NCBI GenBank assembly: GCA_000002445.1
Contig: CP000070.1
Location: 288,001 to 352,000, forward strand
Direction of reading: 5' to 3'
DNA: 64,000 nucleotides
DNA from: Trypanosoma brucei
Taxonomy: Eukaryota
The position numbers and the translations under genes are program-made. The first letter of the stretch is position 1. Every line of letters begins with the position of its first letter. Under the pieces are notes generated by a model, which worked only from the letters and a program-made list of their open reading frames with translations, had not been told where the DNA came from and made no database searches. Positions 21,054 through 42,627 of the stretch are shown in pieces.

Positions 21054-23609
21054 GTGCTACACCGTAAACAGAAGGCAAACACTGAAATGCACGAACCTCG
21101 TGAAGTAGTTCCTCTGGAGCGCGCTTTCCTGGACGTTCCCGACGTCTCGGAGGACGTACATTGGCTTTTGCGCCGGTTCGTCAACGAAGACGGTGTCGTC
21201 CTGGGTTGGGGCCTTTGTCGCAACGGTGAACTGGGGACGGGTACTCGGAACAACGTCATTACGCCGTTTATCATTGGTGGTTTGGATAAACCGATTCGCA
21301 TAGGATGCTCCTCCATGACCTCCGTGTGGCTAGGCGTCCGCGGTGCTGTCCTTACAATGGGTGGTGGCATGTGGGGTGAACTTGGCGTTCCGGACCCACA
21401 GGTGATGCCACTTCTCTCCTGCACTGAACATGGCGTGCCTATTTCAACCGCACAAATTGATCTCCGGCAATTCAATTGGAATGAGATGATTGTGGACGTC
21501 AAGGGAGGGCATGCATTTTTTGCTGCACTTTCTAGCAAAGGGGAGGTGTTATTGTGGGGGGCAAACGATTACGCCCAATGTACTCCTGAGGTAAGGGGAG
21601 CGTGCTGTGCAACACCACGCAAACGCCGTGTGGCGGCTGAGAGAATTGTGGAGGTTGCTTGCGGCAACTATACCGTTTTGGCCCTCTCAGAGCGTGGTGA
21701 AGTATACGGCTGGGGCTACACCCTTCTCCTTGGCGAGGAGGAATCGACGTGGAAGACGTTGCCCCCGAATCATTTGAAAAGAGTGATTGTGGATGGCGAA
21801 GAGAGGGGTACCGTCGTGCAACCTGTTAAAATTCGTTCGTTGAGTTCCAAGTCGATAAGCCACATACGGATGGGACCGTGGCATGCCTTTGCGTTTAGCA
21901 GTGAAGGCCGTGCTTATAGCTGGGGTCTAGGGGAGGGTGGCCGACTGGGGCACGGTGACGAGGAAAACGTCAGCTTACCAAAGGAAGTCAAGGGGCTTAA
22001 ATCAGCTGTGGTTGAGGTTGCGTGCGGCAGTTTCCACACATGTTTGGTAACCTCCAGCGGCCTCGCGTACGCCTGTGGAGATAACCAAGGCGGCCAATGC
22101 GGAGTCCCCGGTGAAGTCATAGTTACAACCTTTCGTCAACTCGACCTTCCACTACGCCATAAGGTGATATCGGCGTCGTGTGGGCGACACCATACGTTGC
22201 TGCTTTTAGAAACGGGAGAAGTCGTAGCATACGGAACGGGGTTGGGCGTTGGTGTAGGACTGGGGCACGGCTTGCGGATGATACGAGGTGTTCCCATCAT
22301 GGACAACTACATATCACTATGGCTGACAAGTGGGTCGTGCCACAACTTCTCCCTTAGCTTACCCAAGAACCTTTCCATGCTTATACTAGGGCTGCCACAC
22401 CGGGGGGTTCACAGTGCGATTTCAGTCATTGGGGTAAAGGAGGGACTCTTAACTGCTGCTTTGGGACAGGGCTTTTCCATCATATTGAATAGACGCGGCG
22501 TGTGTTATGCAATGGGAATGGGTGGATGGGGACAACTCGGCATTGACCTCAGTAAAGTGCGGGATTTCACTCACGATAGGGTGCCTGTTGTGCGGCATGC
22601 CACCAAAATAACCAGTCTTAGTTCCTCAGCGATCGTGCAAGTTAGCGCCGGGATTTGCTTCTCGGCGGCACTCAGCGATACCCAGCGTGTCTTTACGTGG
22701 GGAAGCAACGTGTACGGTCAGTGTGGACTCGGTGTTAGTCCTATAGAGAACCCACGCATTGCTGAACCTCAAGAAATTGGATGGCTTGCCGATAAGATGA
22801 TCGTCCAAGTGGCGTGTGGTTGTTTTTTTGCTCTGGCGCTGAGTGCAACTGGTTGCGTTTACAGCTGGGGCAACATTGAGTGTTGTGGCGTGGGCGACTT
22901 GCCGCTGCCACCGGAGATACCAGACAACCTTGTAATGGAGTCGTTAGGAAACGATAGCACTGCCAGTATCCTTATGCCAGTGGAAGTGCCAAGTCTTTCC
23001 AACATCGTAGCCGTGGCAGCTGGGGCTTGGCATGCAATGGCGTTGAACGCTGCGGGGGAAATTTACGCATGGGGCATTGGTGCTTGTGGACGACTTGGTT
23101 ACGGTGGAGAAGATGACCGCATCACTCCTGTGAAGGTGTTGCTTTCCGCTTTCGCTACAAAAATTGGATGCGGACCCTTTGGGAGTTACGCCATCACCGA
23201 TGAAGGCAAGCTGTATGTGTGGGGCGCCAATGGAAGGGCTCAGCTTTCTGCTACAGGAAGCCGCATTCTCCTTCCAACGCATGTGCTCGATGATGTGATG
23301 GAGGCCACATTGGGGAAGTATTTTGCCCTTGTCCTTACTCGCTCCCGTGAGTTCAGGTTTTCGGGCGTGATGGAGCACCAGAAGGGCGTGTACGTCAGCG
23401 AGTCGTTTAACGACCTGAGGAATATACCTCCAGAGTTATCCAGGGACAACCTGTCGATGGAAGGATGCCAAGGCGTACGAGTGTTTGCCGGGGTGGAGCA
23501 TGCAATTGTGCTCGTGGAAAAGGACCCACTACCACCAGCTGTGGTTACTGAGCTGCACTACACGTTGCGGGATCGGCCGGCGCAAATTATCAGGCGAAGT
23601 GCCCGTTAG
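21054..23609 (+). CDS. RCC1-repeat protein, 851 aa (paralogous in fold to 14007..17567, not a duplicate)
   Basis: Multiple RCC1 blades (WGLCRNGELGTG, YGWGYTLLLGEE, YSWGLGEGGRLGHGD, FTWGSNVYGQCGLG, YSWGNIECCGVGD, YAWGIGACGRLGYGG, YVWGANGRAQL). A start at 21087 (MHEPREV) is also possible. Confidence 0.8.
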   Translation: MLHRKQKANTEMHEPREVVPLERAFLDVPDVSEDVHWLLRRFVNEDGVVLGWGLCRNGELGTGTRNNVITPFIIGGLDKPIRIGCSSMTSVWLGVRGAVLTMGGGMWGELGVPDPQVMPLLSCTEHGVPISTAQIDLRQFNWNEMIVDVKGGHAFFAALSSKGEVLLWGANDYAQCTPEVRGACCATPRKRRVAAERIVEVACGNYTVLALSERGEVYGWGYTLLLGEEESTWKTLPPNHLKRVIVDGEERGTVVQPVKIRSLSSKSISHIRMGPWHAFAFSSEGRAYSWGLGEGGRLGHGDEENVSLPKEVKGLKSAVVEVACGSFHTCLVTSSGLAYACGDNQGGQCGVPGEVIVTTFRQLDLPLRHKVISASCGRHHTLLLLETGEVVAYGTGLGVGVGLGHGLRMIRGVPIMDNYISLWLTSGSCHNFSLSLPKNLSMLILGLPHRGVHSAISVIGVKEGLLTAALGQGFSIILNRRGVCYAMGMGGWGQLGIDLSKVRDFTHDRVPVVRHATKITSLSSSAIVQVSAGICFSAALSDTQRVFTWGSNVYGQCGLGVSPIENPRIAEPQEIGWLADKMIVQVACGCFFALALSATGCVYSWGNIECCGVGDLPLPPEIPDNLVMESLGNDSTASILMPVEVPSLSNIVAVAAGAWHAMALNAAGEIYAWGIGACGRLGYGGEDDRITPVKVLLSAFATKIGCGPFGSYAITDEGKLYVWGANGRAQLSATGSRILLPTHVLDDVMEATLGKYFALVLTRSREFRFSGVMEHQKGVYVSESFNDLRNIPPELSRDNLSMEGCQGVRVFAGVEHAIVLVEKDPLPPAVVTELHYTLRDRPAQIIRRSAR

Positions 23610-24376: not shown

Positions 24377-25888
24377 TTTATTCGTATATCTACGCTTTAT
24401 TTGTTTAGTTAGTTGCCTTTTCCTTATTGTTACAAGTTATACTGTTGATATTGTTGATATTTTTCATCTACTCGCACATCTCACTTTGCCCTGCAACGCA
24501 ACAGGCTTATCGCATTACCGTATCGCAGAATACCGTTCTTCAACCATCGAAGCCACATTTACTCGAAAAATATCGTGCCTGTCATTTACCTATTTATTTA
24601 TTCATTTTCCTTCTTAATGATTACTGGTTCCTTCATCTTAAACCATTACAAGGGGAGCCATCGCTGGTATATGTATTGCTTCACTGTGTCTACTTATGTA
24701 TGTATCAGCGTAAAGAAGAATATTGAATACGCTCCGTCACTTTCCGCCTTGCCTTTTTTTCTTTAGTTTCAGGAATTTTTACAGTTCTGTAAGCATCCGA
24801 CGAGCCGTCTTGTATTTCTGTGCAAATGGTCGTGTGGATGCTGTAGAGAGAAATGCGTTGAGTTGTTGTATGTAGTGAAATAGAGGTGACGGGTATGAAC
24901 TTCTTCTACAAAGAAAAATCGCAGAAGGAAAGCACGCACTTAATGACTAGCATCCATTGTAAGCGCCACTGTCACGCCGTATGAGTGCACTTTATCAGTT
25001 CTAATTTCTTAATTCATTATTTTTTGCGCTGGTACTCTTAAGGGTGTAACACGATGTGCTTGTTTGCGTGTTGAGGACGGCGTGTAGGGAGTTTTAGCAT
25101 AAAACAAAAAAGGCGACAGGCACCAACCTGGGTCATGATCATTCTCTTCACCTATTTTTTTCCCCTTCATTATTGTTATTTTTCCTGCGCTATATCGTTT
25201 GCGAACTGCGGCAAATAGATGAGTAAATAAATATTTAGAAACGTAAAAGGTAGTGACTGTACAAGAACTCAAGTAAACAAAGTACGGTTTCCTCTGTGTG
25301 TTTGCGCGAAAACTGTTTTTGAAGAAGAATGAGCGGTGCCAGAAACTTATTACTTTCTCTCCGTCTGCGCTTGCAGTTTGTGTGTATATATCTTTCCTGC
25401 CTTTTCCTGTTCTGTTTTGCTCCCTCTTAATTCCTTCCGGCCATTACCGGGATAGTGTCTTTGAGTAGTTGTTGCCTGACCTGCAAGCACTCCTGTGGTC
25501 CACTGAGAGTGTTATTATCATTATTGCAGGCTTTCCCCTGCTGCTGTCAAATAACAGGGTCACACAAAAAGGGAAAGAAAGAGAAGGGGAGAGGAGGGAA
25601 GTTAGTGAAGGTTAAGGGACAAAACAGACATAGTGTGAGGAAGTAGCGGATTGCTGTCATATATATATATATATATTTCCCCAAATACTAATCGTAGTAA
25701 GTCAAGGAGAGCACAAGAAGAAATAATAACGAGCGCAAACTCGTTCCCTTATATACAAGTTATTGTTTCCCTGCGGCAGTAAACTACCCGGTTGTTCATA
25801 TTAGCGGGAAGGAAAGGTGGTACGGGAGAGGGGCAGAAGAGGGTTAGTGAATTTTTTTTTGTTTTTCGAACCCCCTCCCCCAAAATCC

Positions 25889-28800
25889 ATGGAGCATCAA
25901 AACGACCGCTGCACTTATTCCGTTCGCCCGCACGGGAAGTTGCAAGAATACTTGCTGGAACTCGAGAGTAAACTCCGGAATACCGCCGCACTGCTCCGTG
26001 AGTTCGGCACAACACCTAAGGGGAGCGATGCGGAGGGCTCTCCTGCCAATTGCACCACCTCTGCAGCGCAATCGGTGGGTGCGTACATCGAGGAACTACA
26101 GGGAGAAGTTGAGGCGTATGATGAACTTATCAACGAGCGACTAAAACAAATACGCCACCAGGCGGATGCAGCCTCGCAGGTGCACGTGGCATATCAAAAG
26201 ATGTTTCCGGACCATTCTCTCAAACCGAATACGATTAGCCCTGCAGAGAGGAAGCCATCAGCTAGTAGAGGTGTCTGTTACGACGGTGTTCGTCGATACC
26301 TTTCTCACTTTATAAACTGGGATCCATTGGAATTTGCTCGTGTCCCGGGTGGTGAAGACGAGGCTAATTGGGATCCACGAACGTCTCCCGCGCCTAGAAA
26401 CAGCGCTTCATTGTATCCGACCGAGGGAATTAAGGGGGATGGCGGTGATCGGAACTGTGGGCCATGGTCGCATGCTCATTCGACGCCTAACCACCAGTCG
26501 CAGTGGTCGGGAGCTCCGTGCGGCCCACGCGGATCGGGTCAGCAGTGCGGTAGACGAGGGATAAAATCTGTAGTGGATGATTTGGTGGTTCGGCAGCTTC
26601 AGTATGACGGCGTCCCGCTAACAACGACGATGGAGATGGATCTGGGATGCTATAATGGATTGGCGGCTGCATGTGAAAAGAATCCCACGAGGAGCAGCCA
26701 TCCAGTAAGCGTGGCGGTGCCGCAGGAGATCCGTTGCGGAGTCCTGCGACCGTGTTCACTTCGGGAGGAAAGCGTGGACATACTGCAAATGGTAACGGAC
26801 GCCTACCCGCGTACCGTTCAGTGGATTGTTAATATCGTTAATCTTTGCATCTCCTCCGCAGATATTCCGAGGACGGTCATGACGACTGCTGAAGGATTGG
26901 CACTGCTACTAGAGGCAGATGCTAATGGAGCCATACCGCACACGCAGCAAACGAGGGAGAGTGAGAGCCAATCGAGCAAGGTGTTTTTCCCAGCGGTTTC
27001 TGCACCAGAAGCGGAACCGACGCCGGATCGTGACATGCGCGAGACTCAGGAAACACCGGAACTCGGCGATGTTGTGCGGCTTCACAGAAGTGCTGCCTTC
27101 TTGTGGTCCTCGCAATTGAATGAGGAAGTCGAAGACGGAGAGGATGATGAACTCGCGGAAGCCACCAGTAGAGATGCCGGTACCGATATGGCTCCAGACG
27201 AGGAGCAAGATTATCTCGAGGAACACGAATATTATGTAGGCATGGAAGATCTTATACATGCAGATGTGGAAGCCGATGAGGTGGAGGAAGACGAGGACGA
27301 CGATGGAGATGGAGATGACGGCCGGATATTTGTGAATGACAGCGCAGGAGAGGAAGAAGACGAGGTGGATGAGGATATGCTTGAGGAAGGGGAAGATGTC
27401 GGCGAAGAGGAGACTGAAGACGACTACAGATACTTGCAACAGCAGCGAAACGCAGAGGAAGGTGACGTTGGCGGAGGAATCCGGGGTCGAGGGGAGGGAG
27501 GAGAGAAACAAGGAGAGCCAACTGCGTCCACGGAACAGAATGAAGTCCAACTCGTCGCTTTCGTGATGCAGCGACTGAAGGTATTCCTGTCAGACCTCGT
27601 GATTATTACGGCACTGCAACAGCTGGCGCTGATGGTTTCGGCGGCTCGGGCTACAATGTCAGACATGACGATTAACGGGGGCGAAGACGGTGACACAACT
27701 TCGTTGACACTGCAGCGAGCCGCTGAGTTCGCCTTAGCGTTATGTCGTCATCCGTCCGTGGCATGGCGGCTTGCAGTCGAGAACGGGTTTCATCAGTCTC
27801 ACACGCTGGGTGATGGTGATCCTCAGGTCAGTGGTGATGCTGCGCGGCCGTCCGCACTGCTGCTTTCTTTCCGTCACATTCTCGTGGCACTTGGGTACAT
27901 GCCGTTAGCCCTGGGAAATGAGCACAGACGTGCCTGTGAGGAGTCACAAGTGAATGGGAACTCACATGGTGGGAAACAGGCACAGGAACGCCTGCTGTGG
28001 TGTGTGGCGCCCTTTCTGCGCTTGTGGGGTGACAACCAGCGATCGTACTCTGGTGTTGGCGTTCCAACAGATCCCATGTATGGTTTCGTCGAGGATAGTC
28101 GTGGTACTGGTGGGGCCGCGGTAGCCGTTCCGATATGCACGACGCCGTTAGTGTGGCAAGAAAGCGTTCTCATGAGCCTCCTTGATCAGGTAGGGAAATT
28201 GAAACAGCTTGAGGAGCTTCTTCAACAGGAAGGACATAATGTGAAGCAAGCGGCATCTTCCTTCAATACAACTCCCCAACCAGAGAGCCTGCTTTATCGC
28301 TTCATATATCCACTTAGTGCACCTGTGCTGCGTAATCTTGACGATTGCTGCGAAAGGGGTCTCATCACGACATTCGGAGGTAGTCCTTCGCAACGCACGA
28401 GTATGAGCGAGTCACCGCAAGGTACCCCTTTTCGCCTGCCGCCCCCACAGCAGCAACCAACGTCACCGGCCGCAGCTATCAGTACCCAGCGGCGCTCAAT
28501 AATCAGCGGGTTTCGCGGCATGTTGCAAGGCTGGACGGGCTCTCGAAACAACAATCGTCGCAACACCGATACCGATCCTGCTGTAACCAGTGGGGACGAC
28601 GCCCAATCCCAGGATCCCACTGCCTCTCCGAAGCCTTCAGCACCCCAGCATACCGTGATCTTGGAGCTTCCCCACGCCAGCACGATTTTGTTGCAGCAAG
28701 ACGAGCTACAACGACGCGCTACATCCGCGTTACTTTATCCCAAGGAAAATCTGAGCTTCCATTCGGCGAACCCCGTTAGGTTGCTAAACTCATTTGTTGT

Positions 28801-29113
28801 GTGGCAACCGATGTTCCAGAAAACCATGTGCTACTGCCCGATAACACGCAGACGTTGTATTGACGCGTGTGTGCACGGTATCACTCCCGAGCAATATAAG
28901 GAAGCGCCGACGTCCCTCACAACTGGGGCTGAGTCGGGGTTCAATCCCGCGCAGTTGTTAAACTGTGGTCACGTGATTTCATATCGCGCGATGATGGCAC
29001 TGGCAGAACGGCCGCAGCGACTGGTCAGAGGGTCATCAAACGGCGTGCGATGTCCGTATTGCACAATGGTGACTCCGTTGGAGCAGTCGCTGATGCTATC
29101 GTGTATTTACTAG
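25889..29113 (+). CDS. large acidic protein with C-terminal Gid/CTLH-type degenerate RING (RMD5/MAEA-like)
   Basis: Start chosen at MEHQNDRC after a T/C-rich tract (the ORF opens at 25817). Central D/E-rich block (about 27100-27450). C-terminus CPITRRRCIDA…NCGHVISYRAMMAL…VRCPYC matches, from memory, the RMND5A/MAEA RING pattern CPILRQQ…CGHVISRDAL…KCPYCP. Confidence 0.6.
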   Translation: MEHQNDRCTYSVRPHGKLQEYLLELESKLRNTAALLREFGTTPKGSDAEGSPANCTTSAAQSVGAYIEELQGEVEAYDELINERLKQIRHQADAASQVHVAYQKMFPDHSLKPNTISPAERKPSASRGVCYDGVRRYLSHFINWDPLEFARVPGGEDEANWDPRTSPAPRNSASLYPTEGIKGDGGDRNCGPWSHAHSTPNHQSQWSGAPCGPRGSGQQCGRRGIKSVVDDLVVRQLQYDGVPLTTTMEMDLGCYNGLAAACEKNPTRSSHPVSVAVPQEIRCGVLRPCSLREESVDILQMVTDAYPRTVQWIVNIVNLCISSADIPRTVMTTAEGLALLLEADANGAIPHTQQTRESESQSSKVFFPAVSAPEAEPTPDRDMRETQETPELGDVVRLHRSAAFLWSSQLNEEVEDGEDDELAEATSRDAGTDMAPDEEQDYLEEHEYYVGMEDLIHADVEADEVEEDEDDDGDGDDGRIFVNDSAGEEEDEVDEDMLEEGEDVGEEETEDDYRYLQQQRNAEEGDVGGGIRGRGEGGEKQGEPTASTEQNEVQLVAFVMQRLKVFLSDLVIITALQQLALMVSAARATMSDMTINGGEDGDTTSLTLQRAAEFALALCRHPSVAWRLAVENGFHQSHTLGDGDPQVSGDAARPSALLLSFRHILVALGYMPLALGNEHRRACEESQVNGNSHGGKQAQERLLWCVAPFLRLWGDNQRSYSGVGVPTDPMYGFVEDSRGTGGAAVAVPICTTPLVWQESVLMSLLDQVGKLKQLEELLQQEGHNVKQAASSFNTTPQPESLLYRFIYPLSAPVLRNLDDCCERGLITTFGGSPSQRTSMSESPQGTPFRLPPPQQQPTSPAAAISTQRRSIISGFRGMLQGWTGSRNNNRRNTDTDPAVTSGDDAQSQDPTASPKPSAPQHTVILELPHASTILLQQDELQRRATSALLYPKENLSFHSANPVRLLNSFVVWQPMFQKTMCYCPITRRRCIDACVHGITPEQYKEAPTSLTTGAESGFNPAQLLNCGHVISYRAMMALAERPQRLVRGSSNGVRCPYCTMVTPLEQSLMLSCIY

Positions 29114-30349
29114 TGATTTTTTTTGTCAGTTAGCATCTTGCGTACAAAGGGCTCCGTGTGTATAACCGAATACTGAAAAAAAAAACAACAGCAACCCTTA
29201 CGGTCGCCTGTCATTGGCGCTGAAGTAATTTACCATCACCATCACTTTCTCACTTTCTCTCGTCGTGTGCGTTTGTATTATTCTTGCTAATTCTCTCATT
29301 GTTGTTTAGTGCCGATTCTATGGTCGTTGGGGTATCCTGCCTTGCACCTTCACATTCTACGGGCCTCCGCACTCTTTCACTAAGTTTTTCAGTGAGTGAA
29401 CTTGTGAGACCATAATCACTGCAGGAATTGGGAAGCAAAGAGAAACCGAACGCCTGCTGATTTTTTTGTTTTTTCTTACACATATCTATACAGTGCTGCA
29501 AAGGGGGGGGGGGAGTAATTGAAAGGATCGTGGTTTTACCCAGCCTTTTGGCTGTGTGAAAAAATTATTCTTGGGCACACTCTCATTTATCCCTCTTGTC
29601 TCCTTTAATTCGTGCGCGGCATGATTTGTCTTCATGCAACAGCGTTACGGATTCCCGTGGAGCCGTTTTGTTTTTCCCCATACCTATCATCGTTATTGCT
29701 GGCGGTGTATCATCGGATGTAAGGAGGTGTATATTTATATATATCTTTCCCTAACGAACACCTCACCTTCTTCCCCTCCCTTCTTCCTTTGCTAGTTGTA
29801 ACGTCTGCTGTTGCTTAAGTGTGATTGGTACGGGAAATATGAACAGGGGTGGGCAATAAGAGGCGCGACAGCCAACACTGGGGGAGGGAAGGGGTGAGGG
29901 TTTGTCACTAATGCTTCTTTCCTCTGCGCTGCTGTATGTAATGTTGTTGCGTTATCTCTACAACAGAAATCTTTGGAAGTGAAAATTTTCCTTTGTGCGT
30001 GGAAATGCATACCGCTTGCATATCCCAGTTGATCAGTCGATATATTTATGCATATATTTTGGTGTGACACTTCTTCTATCGTCATTTTACCTTTGTCTTC
30101 ACTTTCTTTCGTTTGGGTGCCATCTAGCACTGATTACACAAGCAGCTTCTCCAACACCTGTCTGCTCCCCTTTCAAATTTGTGAGCTTCTAATTTTTTCG
30201 TTTCAATTCTCTGAGCTGCTACTCTTTTCCTTTTTTTTTTGGGGGGGTGCATTCGTCCTCATCCTACAAGTTGTATCTACACCGTTTTATTTACGTTTGG
30301 ACACGTGCAAACCGAATCGGCCGTCTAGGAGGAGGCGTGCGCAGGAGAC

Positions 30350-32872
30350 ATGAGGCCCACACCAGACCAGACTAAGGAACAACAAAACCGTTTTCGGAAG
30401 TCATTGGAGGGACTGTCAGTAGTTGAGAAAATCACGGATTTTTTGCATGCTGTGTGCCGAGTGTCTAATGGGCGGGGCTCTGCCATCCTCGTGGGTCTCC
30501 CGCGTCATCACCGGCAACAATTAGTTTTCCTCAACAATGGCCATACGAAGAGCCGGCACGTTGGCGGACCCGAGGGACGAGATGAACAGCGAGAAGCTGA
30601 GTGTAGCGGTGTACTGCTTACCACATCATTTGTCTTTCCTAACAGGGATGAAGCACAAGGCTCGAGTGTAACATTCTTGGAACAACCCGTCGTTGGGACA
30701 AGTGCACGGCATGGTCGCCCGATTTGGTCTGTACAAGCACCCGTGTGTGCTGACAAGGTATTTTATCAGCACGTGAACGCGAATTTACCGAAGAAGCACA
30801 ATCCACAACCGCCGCCTCCGCCTCCGCGGGGGATGTATGGCACGCACGATGCCGAAAGCAGAAACAACGGGCCCTATACATTTGCCGACAGTAACATTTC
30901 CAGCACGTTTGGCTATGAGGAAGACGGGGTGCTCGGTTTCACCTTCACGGTGTGCAATATGAAATCGTTACACTGCCCTCGCCAGTCCGCTTTCTTTTCT
31001 CGCAGATCTTCTCTAGCGGGTAAGCCGCAGCGTCCCCCTCCATCGGGGGATCCGTTCGATTCTTTCACAGATTTTCAGTCATCCAACAACTCCACATTCC
31101 AAGCAAAGAGTTCCGAAAGGGTTTATAGCCCTCATAGCTCCATATCGGAAATGAGCGTCTGCGGGTCGTTTGGTGGAAACGCTAATTGGCGGTCGTTGAA
31201 AGGAATTAGTTCAAGGAGCCCTATTAGGCCCCTTCCTCTCCCTCTCCTTCTGTCAAATCTCCCACCAGTTCGGGTGGGGGACACACATCTTATTGTCGCG
31301 CACATCAACGGCAAGGAGCGGCGCTCTGTTGTAGTGGTTGTCAAGAGTGTAGAGAGCGAGTATTGTGAGTATGATTTCTTTGATCTCGAATGGGAATACA
31401 GCAGCGGTGGCCCGATTTTTGATATGCAGGGGAACTTTATAGGGATTCAACATCAGGTTGGTTTTAGCGCCTACGGCATATTCACCACCGCCATTGTTCG
31501 TGACCTTTTTAAGTCGATGCGCCTCGGCATATGTCGCATACCAATTGGGGATACATCAAATGACATGGCAGAGCGAAGCGTGCACTCGGGAACAGGGGAG
31601 GATGCGCTCAGTCAATTGTTTCGTGTTGAAGGGGGGCATTCCAACCTGAACGTTGGAGCTGGTGATCAAATAATTCCCTTTGAAGACTTTCAGCGGTTGC
31701 ACCTGCGTGACACAATTAAGAAAACAAAGTTGTCATCTGCTGGGGATCCCCCCACGAGTGACGCAGTTTGGGAGGAATTTCACACGGATTTCAACAGCAT
31801 CGTGCTCATGCTCCACGCCTTTGCACACGCGCCACAGATAACAAAAACAGCGCTTAGGGAGATGGCGAGCAATGAATACACAAAGTATCTCCCGAACGCC
31901 GCTTCTATGGGGGGAATTGGGATTCTTCTAGAAATCATTGATGAATACGCAAACGACGTGGAGATCGTGTTGGCCGCCGTAATTGTTCTCGCACGTGTGT
32001 CTCTCTACAAACTGAACCGCGAGACCATATACAGGTGCGACGGCATTCTCACTTTACTTCACATTATGGATGAATATTCTTATTATCCTTCTATACAGCA
32101 CTGGGGGTTTTGTTGCCTGCGTAACGTGATGGATGTCGATTCAGTCGTTCGGGCAGAGGCCGTTGAGCTCTTTGCCCAGTGCGATGGCATTGATCTCGCC
32201 ACAGAGGTGATCCGCTTGCATAAAGATGAGAGGCATGTGATGCGTCAGGCCTCTTTGGCACTCAGCTGTGTTGCACGTGAGCATGCAAAGCACGCAGAAG
32301 CAATGGTGGTGTGCGGCATTGGCAGCACACTCGCTGAGGACATGAGAAATAAGGCGGAGGATTCCTTCACATTTTTTGGTTTAGTATCGTTGCTGTACGA
32401 GCTGCTACACTGTATTGCAAGCAGTAGTGGGGTGGTTCCTTCATCTGACGACCCCTCGCGGTTGCTGCGTACTGGGAAACACGACTGGGATTATGAGAAT
32501 TCGCTTGATTTAGGTGTCGTCACGCCACGCAGCTTCCTCGTGAGCGAATCTGGAAAGTTGCTCCTACAAGAGCTAAATGAAGGGCATGTGCTTCAGTTAC
32601 TCAGCGATGTCATGGAGAGTACTTCCCACGAGACGCTGTGCGGAGACTCTTTGAGGTTGATGACCGAATGCGCCGGTTCCGTTTTCATATTATTGATTCT
32701 AACTGGCTGTTGTGAAGAACCAATTGTGAAGAGGTTGTATGGGGCATGTGATCGTCTTGTGGTCAAAAATCCAAGCGAGGCTGCGCTGGTCCGCAGGTCG
32801 AAAAACATAATGTGCTGGGTCGCTGCATGTGCCCCGCTCTGTTGTAGTAAGGAAGAAATCTGCCTTGTATAG
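30350..32872 (+). CDS. hypothetical protein with chymotrypsin-fold (trypsin-like) domain-like N-terminal half and ARM/HEAT-like C-terminal half, 840 aa
   Basis: GSAILVG…LVFLNNGHT (His region) … YSSGGPIFDMQGNFIGIQHQ (GxSGGP…G.IGI Ser region) in the order expected for chymotrypsin-fold peptidases. The C-terminal about 300 aa is helical-repeat-like (…GGIGILLEIIDEYANDVEIVLAAVIVLARVS…). Confidence 0.55.
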   Translation: MRPTPDQTKEQQNRFRKSLEGLSVVEKITDFLHAVCRVSNGRGSAILVGLPRHHRQQLVFLNNGHTKSRHVGGPEGRDEQREAECSGVLLTTSFVFPNRDEAQGSSVTFLEQPVVGTSARHGRPIWSVQAPVCADKVFYQHVNANLPKKHNPQPPPPPPRGMYGTHDAESRNNGPYTFADSNISSTFGYEEDGVLGFTFTVCNMKSLHCPRQSAFFSRRSSLAGKPQRPPPSGDPFDSFTDFQSSNNSTFQAKSSERVYSPHSSISEMSVCGSFGGNANWRSLKGISSRSPIRPLPLPLLLSNLPPVRVGDTHLIVAHINGKERRSVVVVVKSVESEYCEYDFFDLEWEYSSGGPIFDMQGNFIGIQHQVGFSAYGIFTTAIVRDLFKSMRLGICRIPIGDTSNDMAERSVHSGTGEDALSQLFRVEGGHSNLNVGAGDQIIPFEDFQRLHLRDTIKKTKLSSAGDPPTSDAVWEEFHTDFNSIVLMLHAFAHAPQITKTALREMASNEYTKYLPNAASMGGIGILLEIIDEYANDVEIVLAAVIVLARVSLYKLNRETIYRCDGILTLLHIMDEYSYYPSIQHWGFCCLRNVMDVDSVVRAEAVELFAQCDGIDLATEVIRLHKDERHVMRQASLALSCVAREHAKHAEAMVVCGIGSTLAEDMRNKAEDSFTFFGLVSLLYELLHCIASSSGVVPSSDDPSRLLRTGKHDWDYENSLDLGVVTPRSFLVSESGKLLLQELNEGHVLQLLSDVMESTSHETLCGDSLRLMTECAGSVFILLILTGCCEEPIVKRLYGACDRLVVKNPSEAALVRRSKNIMCWVAACAPLCCSKEEICLV

Positions 32873-33623
32873 GTTTGAGAAAAAGCGCTTATCCGTTACG
32901 TTCCTTATGGCTGCTTCGCGTTTACTTGTTATTTTCCACGACTATTTGACTGTGACGGCTGTGTCTGATCGCATGTTGTCTCACCTAGAATAGCACTTCC
33001 GCAGAGGGGGAGGGGAAGGGGGTTGCTGAATCGCCGTGCCGCACCCAATGTAATTGCCAAATGTATTTCTGATCGGTGCATTTAATTGAGGACCTAGATC
33101 TGTACCGCGAGTTTGAACCGTGTTTTTTAGCTCTGTTTTCGTCTTCACCACATGGTTGAAAATGTCGTTCATTTGCACTCAATTTGTACATGACTAATTT
33201 GTTGACAGAATACTTGCCACACCCTTTTACTTGCTCTCCCCTTTGCCGTATCCTAAGGCCCTATTATCTTTTTCTCTTCTCTTTTTATTTCGTATCAGTG
33301 GCATCAATCAGTGTGCAAAAGAGGCGCGAAAGTGACTCACCGGCAGCGGAATAATTTGATGTGGGGTTTCCCCCCTTATCTATTGTTTTTTTCCCCCGGG
33401 TTTGCACACACACAGATTGTAAGTACCGAGGTGCCGACAGATTGCATACGCCACGCGTGTCGTTTTTTAAAGCCCGATACGTAGTCATTTAGCAACGGGA
33501 ATAAAGGTGGGACCATTTGAGACAACAAATGCTTGAACTGCTTTGCAACGTTATATATCTAGATACGCACGTGCACATTTTGCTTTCCTCTCCACATTTA
33601 GTTTTGTTCAAACGCTAGCGAGA

Positions 33624-35933
33624 ATGAATGCCAACGGGGTACCCACGGGCTCTGCCACTGCTTCACCTGCGGATCTGCAGCAACCGTTGCTTGGGGCCGA
33701 AGTGTCTGTTCCGATAAAATATCGGAAATACGAGGCGAGTTTGACTTTTTCTCAAAGCACACAGCGCCTTTCGATAAAGCGCACGACACGGAGTGGTAAG
33801 ACTGTCTGCATGGTGAATATTCCAACGTGGAACATTGTAAACATTGTGACCTCTACTGAAGCCCTTGCAGGAAACGGTCGCTGCCGTCGATCAAAGGCAG
33901 CGGCAAGGAAAAGCGAGTGGTCACAAGCGTCTGTTCCGCCGACATTTCCTCAGACTTTCAATCCTGCAGACTCTTCCCAGCGGTATCAGCCAATAGCCCG
34001 AGTGGAGTCCAGCATCTACCCTGTGTCCCGCGCGGATTCCTTTTATTCTTCCACTGCTTTGCCACACTCAAGAACAGCTAGCGGGGCGCGGGGTGGGGCC
34101 ACCACATATTTGGTGTACTACGTTAAGAAAGCAAAAGGGCAGATACCGAAGATATCGACCACAGAGTTCACGGCGGCGACAAGTATGGCATACCAACAGG
34201 AAGCACACAGCACTGTTCAGTGTATATTGAGCGCTATTTACCCACGAGGGTGTAAAAAATTGTTGTTCTTCATTAGTGCCAAGTCGGGTAAAGGCAACGC
34301 ATTGAGCATTTACAAACGTGCTGTTCTCCCGGTGGTGCAGGCATCGAGGCACGAGTTTCAAGAGATTATTACGACGCGTGCACGACACGCGGAGGATTAC
34401 GTAGCAGACCTCGGAAATGATATGAGTGACAAGTACGTTGTTGTTGCCGTGGGCGGTGACGGAATGTTCCACGAACTGGTTAATGGTTTGAACAGAAGGC
34501 GCAAGGCTGCTGCTTGTTGCGGTGCCGACGCTGCGGCGGGGGGGACAGTTGTTGGCCGTTCCAACGGCAGCACGAACGATTTTTCATTGGTGGGAGATGA
34601 AACAGAAGTGAGCGGGTCCAGTAATAACGGCATTCAACAAAAAGCATCGCAGGACCATGATGCACCAAATGATTGGCGAGACGAAACCACCAATGGTGCA
34701 GCAACTAAGTTGTGTACAAGGGGGTTCGCATACTTGAAGGCCAACAATATCGATTTTTCCCTTCCCGTGGTAACCAAACTGCAGTGCCCGCAAACCTTAC
34801 CACTTATTGCCACCATTCCAGCTGGTAGTGGGTGTGGAATGGCGAAAACGTTTAATGTAGACAACATAAAAGAAAGCGTGCTTGCTCTTGTGCATCTAAA
34901 TGCGTGCTCCAAGAGTACAATGAATGTGACTGGCAGCCAAAGGGAATGTGCTAAAACGCAAAGAGATTGTGACGGGGCGAATGGGGTAAGGAAAGGAGGC
35001 GTATCGCGTAGGGGTGATCAAGTTGGCGTGAAGACAAGGAGCGGCAGGAGTGAGAGATCAACACAGCACAATGCTGAGCACGTTGAGCGAGTCGCTTGCA
35101 TGTCGTGTTCGTTTGGTATTATAAATGACATTGACCACGGGTCGGAGAAACTGCGCTGGATGGGAAATGCCCGTTTCACTGCGTATGCGGCATTTCTTTT
35201 GTTGAAAGGGGTGCAAATGTATCAGTGTCGGTTGAGGTACTTACCATGGGTAGGGAAACAGGGACAACAACTGCAGAAGATTGAACCTTCGGACAAGCTC
35301 CCGAACGCAGAGGAGCTTCCTAACTGCACATACACGGATCAGTGCCCTCACTGCTCGCAGTACAAAGTAGCAACGGAGTCTGCCTCCAGAGTTGACTGCG
35401 TGGCTTCCACTCTCACTTCTTTTCCTACTCTTGTCAACGAAGAGTGCAGCGTGCCAGCGGTGGAAGGTAAGGGTAAACACTCGCTTCCGTCTGATTCCAA
35501 TGACTCTATCACCCAACCGATGCCTTCGCAAGAAGAACAGAGCGTAGACTTTGAAGATGATAGCCTTTCATGGGTGACAGTTGAGGGTAAGTTTCTCAGT
35601 ATATTTATCAGCAATATACCAAACGCCTCAAAGGACGCCATCATGACGCCTTATGCACATTTAAACGACAACTCTATCGATGTTGCATTCGTTGTAGAAA
35701 AATCGAGGAAGGTTGGTCGAAGTGATTTTGTGAATATTTTCACCCGTGTGGAAAAGGGTGATCACGTCAAGTTGCCTTTCGTTAGTTATGTGAAAGCACG
35801 CGCCATTGAGCTGGAGGCAATTGAGGGGGATATTATGATTGACGGTGAGGTACTACCAGTGAACAGAGTGAGAATCGAGCCACAATCCCGAACATATGAA
35901 ATCGTGCGCGGCCTGAGTTTGCCTGGGAAGTAG
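33624..35933 (+). CDS. SPHK: sphingosine-kinase-like lipid kinase (DAGK catalytic domain)
   Basis: DAGKc motifs LLFFISAKSGKGNALSIY and YVVVAVGGDGMFHELVNGL, with long low-complexity inserts typical of trypanosomatid SPHK. The ORF opens at 33543. MNANGVP at 33624 follows a pyrimidine tract and AG. Confidence 0.7.
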   Translation: MNANGVPTGSATASPADLQQPLLGAEVSVPIKYRKYEASLTFSQSTQRLSIKRTTRSGKTVCMVNIPTWNIVNIVTSTEALAGNGRCRRSKAAARKSEWSQASVPPTFPQTFNPADSSQRYQPIARVESSIYPVSRADSFYSSTALPHSRTASGARGGATTYLVYYVKKAKGQIPKISTTEFTAATSMAYQQEAHSTVQCILSAIYPRGCKKLLFFISAKSGKGNALSIYKRAVLPVVQASRHEFQEIITTRARHAEDYVADLGNDMSDKYVVVAVGGDGMFHELVNGLNRRRKAAACCGADAAAGGTVVGRSNGSTNDFSLVGDETEVSGSSNNGIQQKASQDHDAPNDWRDETTNGAATKLCTRGFAYLKANNIDFSLPVVTKLQCPQTLPLIATIPAGSGCGMAKTFNVDNIKESVLALVHLNACSKSTMNVTGSQRECAKTQRDCDGANGVRKGGVSRRGDQVGVKTRSGRSERSTQHNAEHVERVACMSCSFGIINDIDHGSEKLRWMGNARFTAYAAFLLLKGVQMYQCRLRYLPWVGKQGQQLQKIEPSDKLPNAEELPNCTYTDQCPHCSQYKVATESASRVDCVASTLTSFPTLVNEECSVPAVEGKGKHSLPSDSNDSITQPMPSQEEQSVDFEDDSLSWVTVEGKFLSIFISNIPNASKDAIMTPYAHLNDNSIDVAFVVEKSRKVGRSDFVNIFTRVEKGDHVKLPFVSYVKARAIELEAIEGDIMIDGEVLPVNRVRIEPQSRTYEIVRGLSLPGK

Positions 35934-37418: not shown

Positions 37419-38405
37419 ATGCAACGCCGCTTGCAGTGTTGTTTAATGCGTGTAGCGCGCTTACATTCGGCAGCATTGATGCATAATACAAATGGTTGGC
37501 TTATGATATCTTGCAGAACCGTACACATTACAGAGAGTGAGGCACAGTCGTTGGTACATTTGTCTGAGGCGCTTTTTTCTGATGAGGCAAATGCTCTGGG
37601 AGTATGTCTACCCGATACCAGCCTTAACCTTGACGGAGAAAGTGGGGAAGGGGATTTATATACTGAGACACTCACAACAGAGAAGTATATGGATGTGCTC
37701 GTTAGTTCACCAACACAAATAGATACGAGGGGAAATGTTTCTGCTTCATCAACGGATCTGATGATGCCGCTTACGCAAGCGGTGCAAGAACTGAAGTTAT
37801 GTCAGCAAAGAGAAGATCAGCGAGCCATTTCTGCAGCGCTTTCAACAGCCATGTGTGCGTTGATGGGAAGTAGTTCATCTCCTTCCAGTGCTGCTGCAGC
37901 TGAGTTATTGTTAGCCGGTGCAGACTTGAAAGCAATCATTTCTGATGGTACTATTCGACATATGTGCATTGAGGATAAATGCATGAGTCGATGTGATTTT
38001 TCCACTTTGTCACTACTTTCTGTACAGGCAAATCGCGTGGATTTCTCGCGCAGTCTCTTTTATGCTGCTGCCTTCCATAATTGTGTGTTTAGGAACTGCT
38101 CTTTTGAGGGGTGTGTACTGAAGGAACTCCGATGTTTAGGAGATGTGTGTTTTGATGGATGCTCCTTTTGTTTTGCGAACATATCGTTACGTATACCTCA
38201 TGAGAAACCGAGGCGTATTTCGGTATCTTCGGCTGCCACAGAAGGCGTGGGAAGGTATTCTGCGGAACATGCTGTGATATTTAACCGCTGTGATTTTGAC
38301 CTCTGTGATTTTGATGGTTGTGATACCCTTCCTGCATCTTGCTTTACGAACTGCACCAATACTCACCTCGCCGCCAAATTTTCGTCATGTGTGAGAACAT
38401 CATAA
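37419..38405 (+). CDS. Cys-rich pentapeptide-repeat-like protein, copy 1 (328 aa)
   Basis: C-terminal half has 5-residue periodicity with a central F/L and Cys at i-2: VDFSR SLFYA AAFHN CVFRN CSFEG CVLKE … VIFNR CDFDL CDFDG CD. The N-terminus is basic and Cys-rich. Confidence 0.7.
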   Translation: MQRRLQCCLMRVARLHSAALMHNTNGWLMISCRTVHITESEAQSLVHLSEALFSDEANALGVCLPDTSLNLDGESGEGDLYTETLTTEKYMDVLVSSPTQIDTRGNVSASSTDLMMPLTQAVQELKLCQQREDQRAISAALSTAMCALMGSSSSPSSAAAAELLLAGADLKAIISDGTIRHMCIEDKCMSRCDFSTLSLLSVQANRVDFSRSLFYAAAFHNCVFRNCSFEGCVLKELRCLGDVCFDGCSFCFANISLRIPHEKPRRISVSSAATEGVGRYSAEHAVIFNRCDFDLCDFDGCDTLPASCFTNCTNTHLAAKFSSCVRTS

Positions 38406-41640: not shown

Positions 41641-42627
41641 ATGCAACGCCGCTTGCAGTGTTGTTTAATGCGTGTAGCGCGCTTACATTCGGCAGCATTG
41701 ATGCATAATACAAATGGTTGGCTTATGATATCTTGCAGAACCGTACGCATTACAGAGAGTGAGGCACAGTCGTTGGTACATTTGTCTGAGGCGCTTTTTT
41801 CTGATGAGGCAAATGCTCTGGGAGTATGTCTACCCGATACCAGCCTTAACCTTGACGGAGAAAGTGGGGAAGGGGATTTATATACTGAGACACTCACAAC
41901 AGAGAAGTATATGGATGTGCTCGTTAGTTCACCAACACAAATAGATACGAGGGGAAATGTTTCTGCTTCATCAACGGATCTGATGATGCCGCTTACGCAA
42001 GCGGTGCAAGAACTGAAGTTATGTCAGCAAAGAGAAGATCAGCGAGCCATTTCTGCAGCGCTTTCAACAGCCATGTGTGCGTTGATGGGAAGTAGTTCAT
42101 CTCCTTCCAGTGCTGCTGCAGCTGAGTTATTGTTAGCCGGTGCAGACTTGAAAGCAATCATTTCTGATGGTACTATTCGACATATGTGCATTGAGGATAA
42201 ATGCATGAGTCGATGTGATTTTTCCACTTTGTCACTACTTTCTGTACAGGCAAATCGCGTGGATTTCTCGCGCAGTCTCTTTTATGCTGCTGCCTTCCAT
42301 AATTGTGTGTTTAGGAACTGCTCTTTTGAGGGGTGTGTACTGAAGGAACTCCGATGTTTAGGAGATGTGTGTTTTGATGGATGCTCCTTTTGTTTTGCGA
42401 ACATATCGTTACGTATACCTCATGAGAAACCGAGGCGTATTTCGGTATCTTCGGCTGCCACAGAAGGCGTGGGAAGGTATTCTGCGGAACATGCTGTGAT
42501 ATTTAACCGCTGTGATTTTGACCTCTGTGATTTTGATGGTTGTGATACCCTTCCTGCATCTTGCTTTACGAACTGCACCAATACTCACCTCGCCGCCAAA
42601 TTTTCGTCATGTGTGAGAACATCATAA
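41641..42627 (+). CDS. Cys-rich pentapeptide-repeat-like protein, copy 2 (328 aa; one aa difference from copy 1: H36R)
   Basis: Same as copy 1. Confidence 0.7.
   Translation: MQRRLQCCLMRVARLHSAALMHNTNGWLMISCRTVRITESEAQSLVHLSEALFSDEANALGVCLPDTSLNLDGESGEGDLYTETLTTEKYMDVLVSSPTQIDTRGNVSASSTDLMMPLTQAVQELKLCQQREDQRAISAALSTAMCALMGSSSSPSSAAAAELLLAGADLKAIISDGTIRHMCIEDKCMSRCDFSTLSLLSVQANRVDFSRSLFYAAAFHNCVFRNCSFEGCVLKELRCLGDVCFDGCSFCFANISLRIPHEKPRRISVSSAATEGVGRYSAEHAVIFNRCDFDLCDFDGCDTLPASCFTNCTNTHLAAKFSSCVRTS

What the first reader, a model, noticed from the sequence alone, without database searches (positions are those of the whole stretch)
30350..32872. Chymotrypsin-fold (trypsin-like) domain fused to an ARM/HEAT-like repeat domain
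Sequence around residue 345 (YSSGGPIFDMQGNFIGIQHQ) has the GxSGGP … G.IGI signature surrounding the catalytic Ser of trypsin-like/DegP-like peptidases. A His-region-like segment (LVFLNNGHT) lies about 280 aa upstream. The C-terminal 300 aa look like armadillo/HEAT repeats. A protease-like domain with a helical-repeat scaffold is an uncommon architecture. The long spacing and low-complexity insert (P8 tract) may mean it is a pseudo-protease.
Basis: partly seen in the sequence, partly recalled or inferred. Interest (0 to 1): 0.55.

Follow-up and report, generated by a model that had tools for sequence, protein, structure and literature searches.

The report
Inactive protease-like domain fused to armadillo repeats
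This Trypanosoma brucei gene encodes an uncharacterised protein, found only in trypanosomes and their relatives, that joins a trypsin-like domain lacking two of its three catalytic residues to an armadillo-repeat scaffold, so it most likely binds partners rather than cutting them, possibly inside the flagellum.

Summary
The ORF is real: 30350-32872, + strand, 840 aa. It is identical to T. b. brucei TREU927 XP_845747.1 (UniProt Q57WS7), annotated "hypothetical protein, conserved".

The proposed His (H65 in LVFLNNGHT) is wrong, because it lies in a variable insertion. The true His position is F94 (VLLTTSFVF, aligned to TNNHV). The Asp position is G196.

The family has 38 clusters among 1.84 billion representatives, plus a few more from a later search. 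All named members are kinetoplastids or diplonemids. None of about 50 members inspected keeps a full His-Asp-Ser triad, and different lineages keep different residues.

Best reading: a non-catalytic pseudoprotease-ARM scaffold. A 2025 cryo-EM preprint tentatively names Q57WS7 as a candidate for a trypanosome-specific density on the flagellar central apparatus. This is a new variant of a known kind, of moderate interest.

The parts
30350..32872 (+). Complete CDS, 840 aa plus stop. Identical to T. b. brucei TREU927 XP_845747.1 / UniProt Q57WS7.
30180..30240 (+). Polypyrimidine tract followed by AG dinucleotides upstream of the ATG. Probable trans-splice acceptor region (approximate bounds).
   Evidence: read directly from the sequence
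30437..31525 (+). Protease-like (chymotrypsin/HtrA-like double beta-barrel) domain, residues ~30-392, including three disordered insertions.
30446..30493 (+). Strands beta1 and beta2: HAVCRV...GRGSAILV, the counterpart of HtrA 'PAVVsI...GSGVII'.
30497..30601 (+). Insertion 1 (residues 50-84): disordered and not conserved.
30608..30637 (+). GVLLTTSFVF, the counterpart of 'yVvTNnHVv'. F94 (codon 30629-30631) occupies the catalytic His57 position.
   Evidence: hhalign. Family table: F 19, H 7, A 6, Y 4, others 5.
30788..30925 (+). Insertion 2 (residues 147-192): disordered. Contains the P6 tract (30809-30826).
30932..30961 (+). LGFTFTVCNM, the last strand of the N-terminal barrel (beta6). G196 sits at the Asp102 position. 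The alternative registers V194 and N203 are also non-acidic.
   Evidence: The register is argued from strand order, spacing and the retained Asp in P0044, P0080 and P0083. hhalign is ambiguous here.
30971..31219 (+). Insertion 3 (residues 208-290): Ser-rich, disordered and not conserved.
31229..31312 (+). Inter-barrel linker and first strand of the C-terminal barrel: PLPLPLLLS...VRVGDTHLIVAHING, the counterpart of HtrA 'LtaIkmaDSdaLrVGDyvvAIGnP'. Conserved D311, H313 and H318.
31397..31456 (+). YSSGGPIFDMQGNFIGIQHQ. S352 (31403-31405) is at the catalytic Ser195 position and G353-G354 at the oxyanion-hole position. H368 (31451-31453) is at the chymotrypsin Ser214 position and is conserved in 40 of 44 members.
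31547..31747 (+). Inter-domain linker (residues 400-466), low model confidence, with a conserved motif NVGAGDQIIPFEDFQRL (31649-31699) of unknown role.
31757..32860 (+). Armadillo-repeat domain (residues ~470-837), about 6-7 three-helix repeats, pLDDT above 90, with one disordered loop at residues 699-725.

Best explanation
The gene encodes a cytosolic two-domain protein restricted to Euglenozoa (kinetoplastids and diplonemids). The N-terminal domain descends from a Trypsin_2/HtrA-type serine protease and keeps the double beta-barrel. It also keeps the oxyanion-hole Gly-Gly, the nucleophile-position Ser352 and the substrate-strand region (GIQHQ, with near-invariant H368). It has lost the general base (His to Phe94) and the orienting acid (Asp to Gly196). 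It is therefore most likely a non-catalytic pseudoprotease whose conserved cleft serves as a peptide-binding or docking surface. That last step is inference.

The C-terminal armadillo solenoid, which sits where HtrA proteases carry PDZ domains, supplies a second, extended protein-binding surface. The three large insertions are disordered, fast-evolving loops. The protein would then act as a structural adaptor or scaffold.

The only localisation lead is indirect. It was in the candidate library taken from mass spectrometry of purified flagellar skeletons, and it was the DomainFit candidate for TbC1b-1, a trypanosome-specific helical density on the C1 microtubule of the axonemal central apparatus. 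I rate the fold and pseudo-enzyme parts at about 0.85 and the central-apparatus role at about 0.35.
For: Fold:
- 35 of 36 PDB profile hits are S1 proteases.
- 21 of 22 family N-domains hit Pfam Trypsin_2, best E = 2.6e-8.
- hhalign against E. coli DegP/Q/S gives E = 2.4e-4.

Triad:
- F94 aligns to the Deg catalytic His in two independent hhalign runs.
- S352 aligns to the catalytic Ser.
- Across 44 members the His position is H in only 7, scattered on the tree. The Asp position is G in 40 of 43. The Ser position is S in 38 of 43.
- A second, diplonemid-type subfamily keeps His, Asp or Ser in different members, but never all three.
- F94 is invariant in 8 Trypanosoma species, so the site is constrained but not catalytic.

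ARM domain.

Closed family: a profile search of 1.84 billion representatives returned only 38 proteins. All are two-domain proteins or fragments.

Literature:
- T. brucei has no active S01 peptidases and 'several S01 homologs ... all predicted to be inactive' (PMC3516576).
- Q57WS7 is named as the TbC1b-1 candidate (bioRxiv 10.1101/2025.05.29.656921).
- MamO is a precedent: an HtrA-like pseudoprotease that still holds a peptide in its crystal structure (PMC4794232).
Against: - No coordinates were available, so the triad assignment rests on sequence and profile alignment and on strand order. It does not rest on a superposition.
- The Asp register is ambiguous in hhalign.
- The near-invariance of Ser352-Gly-Gly and of H368 is more than a purely structural role strictly requires. 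It leaves room for residual or non-canonical chemistry.
- Leishmaniinae and Angomonas orthologues keep His and Ser, and may be active.
- The central-apparatus assignment is explicitly only a 'potential candidate' from low-resolution domain fitting.
- The ARM domain matches axonemal ARM proteins (PF16, FAP194, ARMC4, RSP14) no better than beta-catenin.
- No TrypTag record was found under the guessed gene ID.
- N-domain model confidence is only moderate (pLDDT 46-80).
Confidence: 0.7

Rival explanations
1. It is an active serine protease with a non-canonical catalytic apparatus. One option is a Ser352-His368 dyad. Another, in Leishmania-type orthologues, is a Ser-His-His arrangement in which H368 (at the Ser214 position) replaces the missing Asp. 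The ARM domain would then recruit substrates.
For: - S352 is kept in 38 of 43 members, G353 in 43 of 43 and H368 in 40 of 44.
- Gly at the Asp102 position would leave room for a His side chain reaching in from position 214. This is my inference from the known chymotrypsin geometry.
- Leishmania, Lotmaria, Angomonas and three other lineages keep His at the canonical position together with Ser.
Against: - In T. brucei and all 8 Trypanosoma species the general-base position is Phe.
- Ser352 is Thr or Ala in 5 members, and Ala in most of the second subfamily, while the fold and H368 persist. This argues that the conserved cleft is not kept for catalysis.
- His-bearing members are scattered among sister lineages with Y, A or F, as expected when selection on catalysis is relaxed.
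- MEROPS-based surveys predict all T. brucei S01 homologues to be inactive.
Confidence: 0.12
2. It is a canonical His/Asp/Ser trypsin-like protease, as first sketched: His65 in LVFLNNGHT, an intervening Asp, and Ser near residue 350.
For: Only the superficial resemblance of 'NNGHT' to a His motif, plus the genuine Ser motif.
Against: - H65 lies in a disordered insertion with pLDDT below 50.
- It is replaced in the closest orthologue (T. congolense 'DGDRGN') and absent elsewhere.
- The homologous His motif is VLLTTSFVF, 29 residues downstream.
Confidence: 0.01
3. The protease resemblance is a chance motif match, and the N-terminal half is an unrelated or mostly disordered region attached to an ARM protein.
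For: - For the T. brucei sequence alone, Pfam Trypsin_2 is below the gathering threshold (16.6-18.4 bits against 27.6).
- More than half of the N-terminal 400 residues are predicted to be disordered.
Against: - Family members reach Trypsin_2 at E = 2.6e-8.
- Precomputed Pfam PF13365 is recorded on several members.
- PDB profile hits are almost exclusively S1 proteases.
Confidence: 0.02

Closest known systems
HtrA/DegP-type serine proteases (MEROPS S1C; Pfam Trypsin_2 PF13365)
   Same: - Double beta-barrel fold.
- Motif-by-motif correspondence: 'lEKv.paVv.I', 'GSGvii', 'vvTNnHV', 'l..i.l.dS..l.VGD..vaiG.P' and 'GNSGGPl.n..GelvGI'.
- A protease-fold domain followed by a C-terminal peptide- or protein-binding module.
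   Different: - The catalytic His is Phe and the Asp is Gly.
- The C-terminal module is armadillo repeats, not PDZ domains.
- There are three long disordered insertions.
- No signal or transit peptide is evident by eye.
- Distribution is restricted to Euglenozoa.
Chymotrypsin-fold pseudoproteases: MamO, the RsgI9 S1C domain, scabies mite SMIPP-S, HGF, haptoglobin, protein Z
   Different: - Those proteins are bacterial envelope or secreted animal proteins with other partner domains (TauE, NTF2, kringle, CCP).
- None is fused to ARM repeats.
- MamO's functional histidines (H148, H263) are not at the positions of the histidines conserved here.
FAM111A/B (eukaryotic intracellular trypsin-like proteases)
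   Different: - FAM111A is an active protease with an intact triad and works at replication forks.
- Sequence similarity is marginal (E = 1.1).
- It has no ARM domain.
Axonemal armadillo-repeat proteins of the central apparatus and doublets (PF16/SPAG6, FAP194, FAP69, ARMC4/ODAD2, RSP14)
   Different: - There is no specific sequence kinship beyond the generic ARM repeat, and beta-catenin and designed ARM proteins score higher.
- None of these proteins carries a protease-like domain.
- The localisation of this protein is unproven.

Membership tests
Clan PA / family S1 (Pfam Trypsin_2) - homology | Two six-stranded beta-barrels of the chymotrypsin fold | tested here: met
Clan PA / family S1 (Pfam Trypsin_2) - homology | Sequence match to the Trypsin_2 profile at Pfam's gathering score | tested here: inconclusive
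   The T. brucei protein scores 16.6-18.4 bits against a 27.6-bit cut-off. However, 21 of 22 family N-domains match, with best E = 2.6e-8, and precomputed PF13365 is recorded on several members.
Active S1 serine peptidase | Catalytic His (chymotrypsin His57) in the 'TNxHV' motif | tested here: not met
   F94 in VLLTTSFVF aligns to the Deg His. Phe is invariant in 8 Trypanosoma species, and His is present in only 7 of 41 members.
Active S1 serine peptidase | Catalytic Asp (Asp102) at the start of strand beta6 | tested here: not met
   G196 is Gly in 40 of 43 members. The alternative registers V194 and N203 are also non-acidic in T. brucei. The register itself is not settled by hhalign.
Active S1 serine peptidase | Nucleophile Ser in G-x-S-G-G with the oxyanion-hole glycines | tested here: met
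   S352-G353-G354-P355 aligns to GNSGGP of Deg9, MucD and HtrA.
Active S1 serine peptidase | Measurable peptidase activity | not testable with these tools
   Needs a recombinant-protein assay or an activity-based probe.
HtrA/DegP (S1C) | One or more C-terminal PDZ domains | tested here: not met
   No PDZ hit in Pfam. The C-terminus is ARM repeats.
HtrA/DegP (S1C) | Trimer-based oligomer | not testable with these tools
   No multimer modelling was available.
Armadillo-repeat proteins | Tandem three-helix repeats of about 42 residues forming a right-handed superhelix | tested here: met
Chymotrypsin-fold pseudoproteases (non-peptidase homologues of S1) | Fold retained with at least one triad residue replaced, conserved across orthologues | tested here: met
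   F94 and G196 are conserved in Trypanosoma, and no member of about 50 has a full triad. This agrees with PMC3516576.
Flagellar central-apparatus C1b component (TbC1b-1) | Physical presence in the central apparatus at the C1b position | not tested

The most novel reading that the evidence does not exclude
The family is an axoneme-anchored protease system caught in the middle of decay. In Leishmania, Lotmaria and Angomonas, which keep His and Ser, near-invariant H368 at the Ser214 position would stand in for the lost Asp, giving a herpesvirus-like Ser-His-His triad. The protein would then be an active protease tethered by its ARM domain inside the flagellar central apparatus. Trypanosoma and the diplonemids would keep only the binding function.
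Probability: 0.07. Interest if true: 0.75.

Novelty: new variant of a known kind. Interest (0 to 1): 0.4.

Why it matters
Trypanosomatids are noted for having no active clan-PA (trypsin-family) peptidases. This analysis shows what one of their 'inactive S1 homologues' actually is.

It is the T. brucei member of a small, closed family spread across Euglenozoa. In this family an HtrA-like domain has swapped PDZ domains for armadillo repeats, and the catalytic triad has decayed piecemeal in different lineages while the binding cleft stayed conserved. That makes it a clean natural example of a protease becoming a pseudoenzyme.

If the tentative cryo-EM assignment holds, it would be a lineage-specific building block of the flagellar central apparatus. 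Motility is essential for the parasite, and the protein has no host counterpart. It also gives the cryo-EM groups a concrete prediction: a beta-barrel domain of about 20 kDa should sit next to the helical TbC1b-1 density.

On present evidence this is an annotation-level advance, not a surprise.

Tried and rejected
It lies in a disordered, non-conserved insertion.
- The proline tract as a functional feature was rejected. It is P6, not P8, and is not conserved.
- Global hhalign against Deg gave a clearly wrong N-terminal register, placing GYT opposite the His motif. Only the local alignments were used.
- hhalign places the 'GYTLVACD' strand opposite Deg beta5. I rejected this in favour of beta6 for four reasons. 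The first is strand order and count in the model. The second is the correspondence of 'FFEGGK' to 'QLSDGR'. The third is trypsin-like spacing to the 'V.V.LP' segment. The fourth is the retained Asp in 'EHLDY(C/T)(L/V)V' of P0044, P0080 and P0083. The ambiguity is flagged, and the T. brucei conclusion holds in all three registers.
- The search for an outgroup protease found none. The A2 profile against 1.84 billion representatives and the A3 profile at E <= 10 returned family members only.
- The afdb50 fold library was unavailable.
- Gene-ID look-ups failed. 'Tb927.7.1230' was guessed from the neighbouring SPHK gene Tb927.7.1240. It has no hits in paper texts or in the TrypTag supplements held, so the ID stays unverified.
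- The flagellar mass-spectrometry source paper (Xia 2025, PMC12165780) is not held.
- The degradome supplements do not list individual S01 homologues.
- MamO's di-histidine site is not positionally equivalent to H313, H318 or H368.
- Genomic context is uninformative, because this is a trypanosome polycistron with unrelated neighbours.
Full report
**Source and gene model.** The window is Trypanosoma brucei chromosome 7. Every ORF of 250 aa or more lies on the + strand, as expected for a kinetoplastid polycistronic unit. The ORF at 30350-32872 (+) encodes 840 aa. It is identical to T. b. brucei TREU927 XP_845747.1 / UniProt Q57WS7, annotated 'hypothetical protein, conserved'. A polypyrimidine tract (about 30180-30240) and AG dinucleotides precede the ATG, consistent with a trans-splice acceptor. 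The downstream ORF carries DAGK_cat and corresponds to sphingosine kinase Tb927.7.1240 (PMC4611037). The neighbours are functionally unrelated, so genomic context says nothing about function.

**Checking the observation.**
- The motif YSSGGPIFDMQGNFIGIQHQ is at residues 350-369.
- On its own, the T. brucei protein gives only a sub-threshold Pfam Trypsin_2 hit. The E-value is 0.013 at 16.6 bits against a cut-off of 27.6, over residues 291-366. It also gives a weak Vac8 (ARM) hit in the PDB.
- The proline run is P6 (residues 154-159), not P8.

**Fold.** AlphaFold2 was run on an 11-sequence alignment. It gave a beta-rich N-terminal region with core pLDDT of 70-82, interrupted by disordered segments at residues 50-84, 112-124, 147-192 and 208-290. 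This is followed by a low-confidence linker (residues 400-466) and a helical-repeat domain with pLDDT above 90 at residues 470-837.
- Foldseek against the PDB matched the C-terminal part to designed ARM proteins, p120 catenin, APC-ARM and importin-alpha, at E of about 1e-6 and probability 1.0.

**Independent sequence evidence.**
- A profile of 22 diverse N-domains hit 36 PDB sequences at E <= 10, and 35 of them are S1 proteases. They include Deg9 at 0.012, RsgI9 at 0.013, exfoliative toxins at 0.026 and MucD at 0.03, as well as HtrA1-3 and FAM111A. All align the family's 'sSGGPvF..GefvGi' to 'GNSGGP..GelvGI'.
- 21 of the 22 N-domains individually match Pfam Trypsin_2, with best E = 2.6e-8.
- Several members carry precomputed PF13365 plus PF23744 (ARM_LRRK2) annotations.
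- A C-terminal profile hit engineered ARM at E = 9.5e-45, LRRK2-ARM at 5e-16, plakoglobin at 3e-15, ODAD2 at 2e-11 and SPAG6 at 8e-11.

Both domain assignments are therefore secure.

**The catalytic triad.** I took real E. coli DegP, DegQ and DegS sequences from NC_000913. The known triads were recovered: H96/D126/S201 for DegS and H131/D161/S236 for DegP. I then ran hhalign against the family profile.
- The local alignment (E = 2.4e-4) pairs 'AVcRI' with 'PaVVsI'. It pairs 'LLTTs(F)V' with 'yVvTNn(H)V', 'PLpLPL..S...vrVGD' with 'l..i.i.....rvGD', and 'sSGGpvFn..GefvGi' with 'gNSGGalvN..GeliGI'.
- A second run used only the diplonemid-type subfamily. It additionally pairs 'GRGTGfLv' with 'lGSGVii' and again puts the family's His-position residue opposite the Deg His.
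- So F94 occupies the His57 position and S352 the Ser195 position.

For Asp102, hhalign is ambiguous. It tends to place the 'GYTLVACD' strand opposite Deg beta5. I assign this strand (residues 195-203) to beta6, which puts G196 at the Asp position, for four reasons:
1. It is the sixth and last strand of the N-terminal barrel in the model.
2. The preceding 'a.F.E(GG)' and 'P..V.LRPD..F' segments account for beta4 and beta5.
3. The spacing to the 'V.V.PLP' segment equals the spacing from D102 to 'V..I.LP' in trypsin.
4. The members that still have an Asp carry it exactly there ('EHLDYTVVGCD' in P0044, 'EHLDYCLVACD' in P0080 and P0083).

In T. brucei the two alternative registers are also non-acidic (V194 and N203). 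The conclusion for this gene therefore does not depend on the register.

**The family.**
- A profile of the N-domain was searched against 1.84 billion representatives. It returned only 38 proteins, 37 of them at E below 1e-10, and no canonical protease. A broader profile at E <= 10 also found only family members.
- Named members are Trypanosoma (8 species), Leishmania braziliensis, L. panamensis and other Leishmania, Lotmaria passim and Angomonas deanei. The named diplonemids are Diplonema papillatum and Artemidia motanka, plus 'Hpha' and 'Rhum' transcriptome proteins that are probably diplonemids.
- All are annotated as hypothetical.

Across the 44 aligned members, counts at each position are over the members with a residue there:

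| Position | Residue counts |
|---|---|
| His position (94) | F 19, H 7, A 6, Y 4, S 2, E 1, W 1, T 1 |
| Asp position (196) | G 40, P 2, D 1 |
| Ser position (352) | S 38, T 4, A 1 |
| G353 | G 43 of 43 |
| H368 (chymotrypsin Ser214 position) | H 40 of 44 |

- On a neighbour-joining tree the His-bearing members form one clade (Leishmania, Lotmaria and P0015, with Angomonas nearby) plus three isolated lineages. The sisters of those lineages carry Y, A or F.
- In the second subfamily, His survives in P0079 and P0081, Asp in P0044, P0080 and P0083, and Ser only in P0044.
- No member has all three residues. This mosaic is the signature of an ancestral active protease whose catalysis stopped being selected, while the fold and the cleft (Gly-Gly, H368, 'VGD') stayed under constraint.
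- F94 is invariant across Trypanosoma.

**Literature.**
[quoted passage not shown] The individual proteins are not listed in the supplements held.
[quoted passage not shown] It screened AlphaFold domains of proteins from a flagellar-skeleton mass-spectrometry library against unassigned densities. Q57WS7 is given as the 'potential candidate' for TbC1b-1. This is a trypanosome-specific helical density on C1 at the place where Chlamydomonas has the ARM proteins FAP194 and FAP69.
- That is a lead, not a demonstration. The ARM domain is no more similar to FAP194, FAP69 or PF16 than to beta-catenin. I also could not confirm a TrypTag localisation.
- MamO shows that an HtrA-like domain with a degenerate triad can lose proteolysis, still hold a peptide in its cleft, and gain another function (PMC4794232).

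**Mechanism.**
- Shown: an HtrA/Trypsin_2-derived fold. The His and Asp positions are substituted and the Ser and oxyanion glycines are kept. The C-terminal domain is ARM, the insertions are disordered, and the distribution is restricted to Euglenozoa.
- Inferred: the protein is a non-catalytic adaptor. The degenerate active-site cleft acts as a peptide-docking site and the ARM solenoid as a second binding surface, in the place where HtrA proteases carry PDZ domains.
- Tentative: it may build the C1b projection of the flagellar central apparatus.
- Rival: residual or non-canonical catalysis (a Ser352/H368 dyad, or Ser-His-His in Leishmania-type orthologues) cannot be excluded without coordinates or biochemistry. 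It is disfavoured by the Ser to Thr or Ala changes and by the scattered pattern of His retention.

**Verdict.** The identification of the His was wrong. The protein is a new architectural variant (pseudo-HtrA plus ARM) of a known kind (chymotrypsin-fold pseudoproteases). It belongs to an undescribed family spread across Euglenozoa. Interest is moderate (0.4), and would rise if the central-apparatus assignment or any catalytic activity in Leishmania were confirmed.

Noticed in passing
window 37419-38405 and 41641-42627 (+): Two tandem 328-aa ORFs about 4.2 kb apart that are essentially identical (100% in the alignment). They give a weak Pentapeptide_3 hit and lie inside a lower-GC stretch (about 0.41, 36-46 kb).
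   Followed up: partly
window 25817-29113 (+): The upstream 1098-aa ORF has no Pfam hit. It has a long acidic low-complexity tract and a Cys/His-rich C-terminus (CGHVISY...RCPYC) that looks RING-like by eye.
   Followed up: partly
window 33543-35933 (+): The downstream ORF carries DAGK_cat and YegS_C domains. It corresponds to T. brucei sphingosine kinase Tb927.7.1240 (PMC4611037). This suggests, but does not prove, that the studied gene is Tb927.7.1230.
   Followed up: partly
window 31649-31699 (residues 434-450): A conserved motif, NVGAGDQ(I/L)I.FEDF.R, sits in the otherwise low-confidence linker between the protease-like and ARM domains. It is kept from Trypanosoma to distant kinetoplastid-type members, and its role is unknown. 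It could be a cis-binding peptide for the degenerate cleft.
   Followed up: no
window 31451-31453 (H368), 31286-31288 (H313), 31301-31303 (H318): Three histidines in the C-terminal barrel are highly conserved family-wide: H368 in 40 of 44, H318 in 38 of 43 and H313 in 33 of 43. H368 sits at the chymotrypsin Ser214 position, next to where Asp102 would be. A possible metal or ligand site, or a structural substitute, was not resolved.
   Followed up: partly
window 21054-23609 and 18951-20273 (+): An RCC1-like repeat protein (WD40_RLD, E = 1.5e-117) and an ApaG/DUF525-domain protein lie upstream in the same polycistron.
   Followed up: no
P0017, P0020 (Lotmaria, Leishmania) and P0019 (Angomonas), against P0001-P0008 (Trypanosoma): Leishmaniinae and Angomonas orthologues keep His at the catalytic position and have 'CSGGP', while all Trypanosoma species have Phe and 'SSGGP'. 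This is a lineage split that could mark retained activity in Leishmania.
   Followed up: partly
whole window: All 15 ORFs of 250 aa or more are on the + strand, and cumulative GC skew rises steadily. This is consistent with a single directional gene cluster.
   Followed up: no
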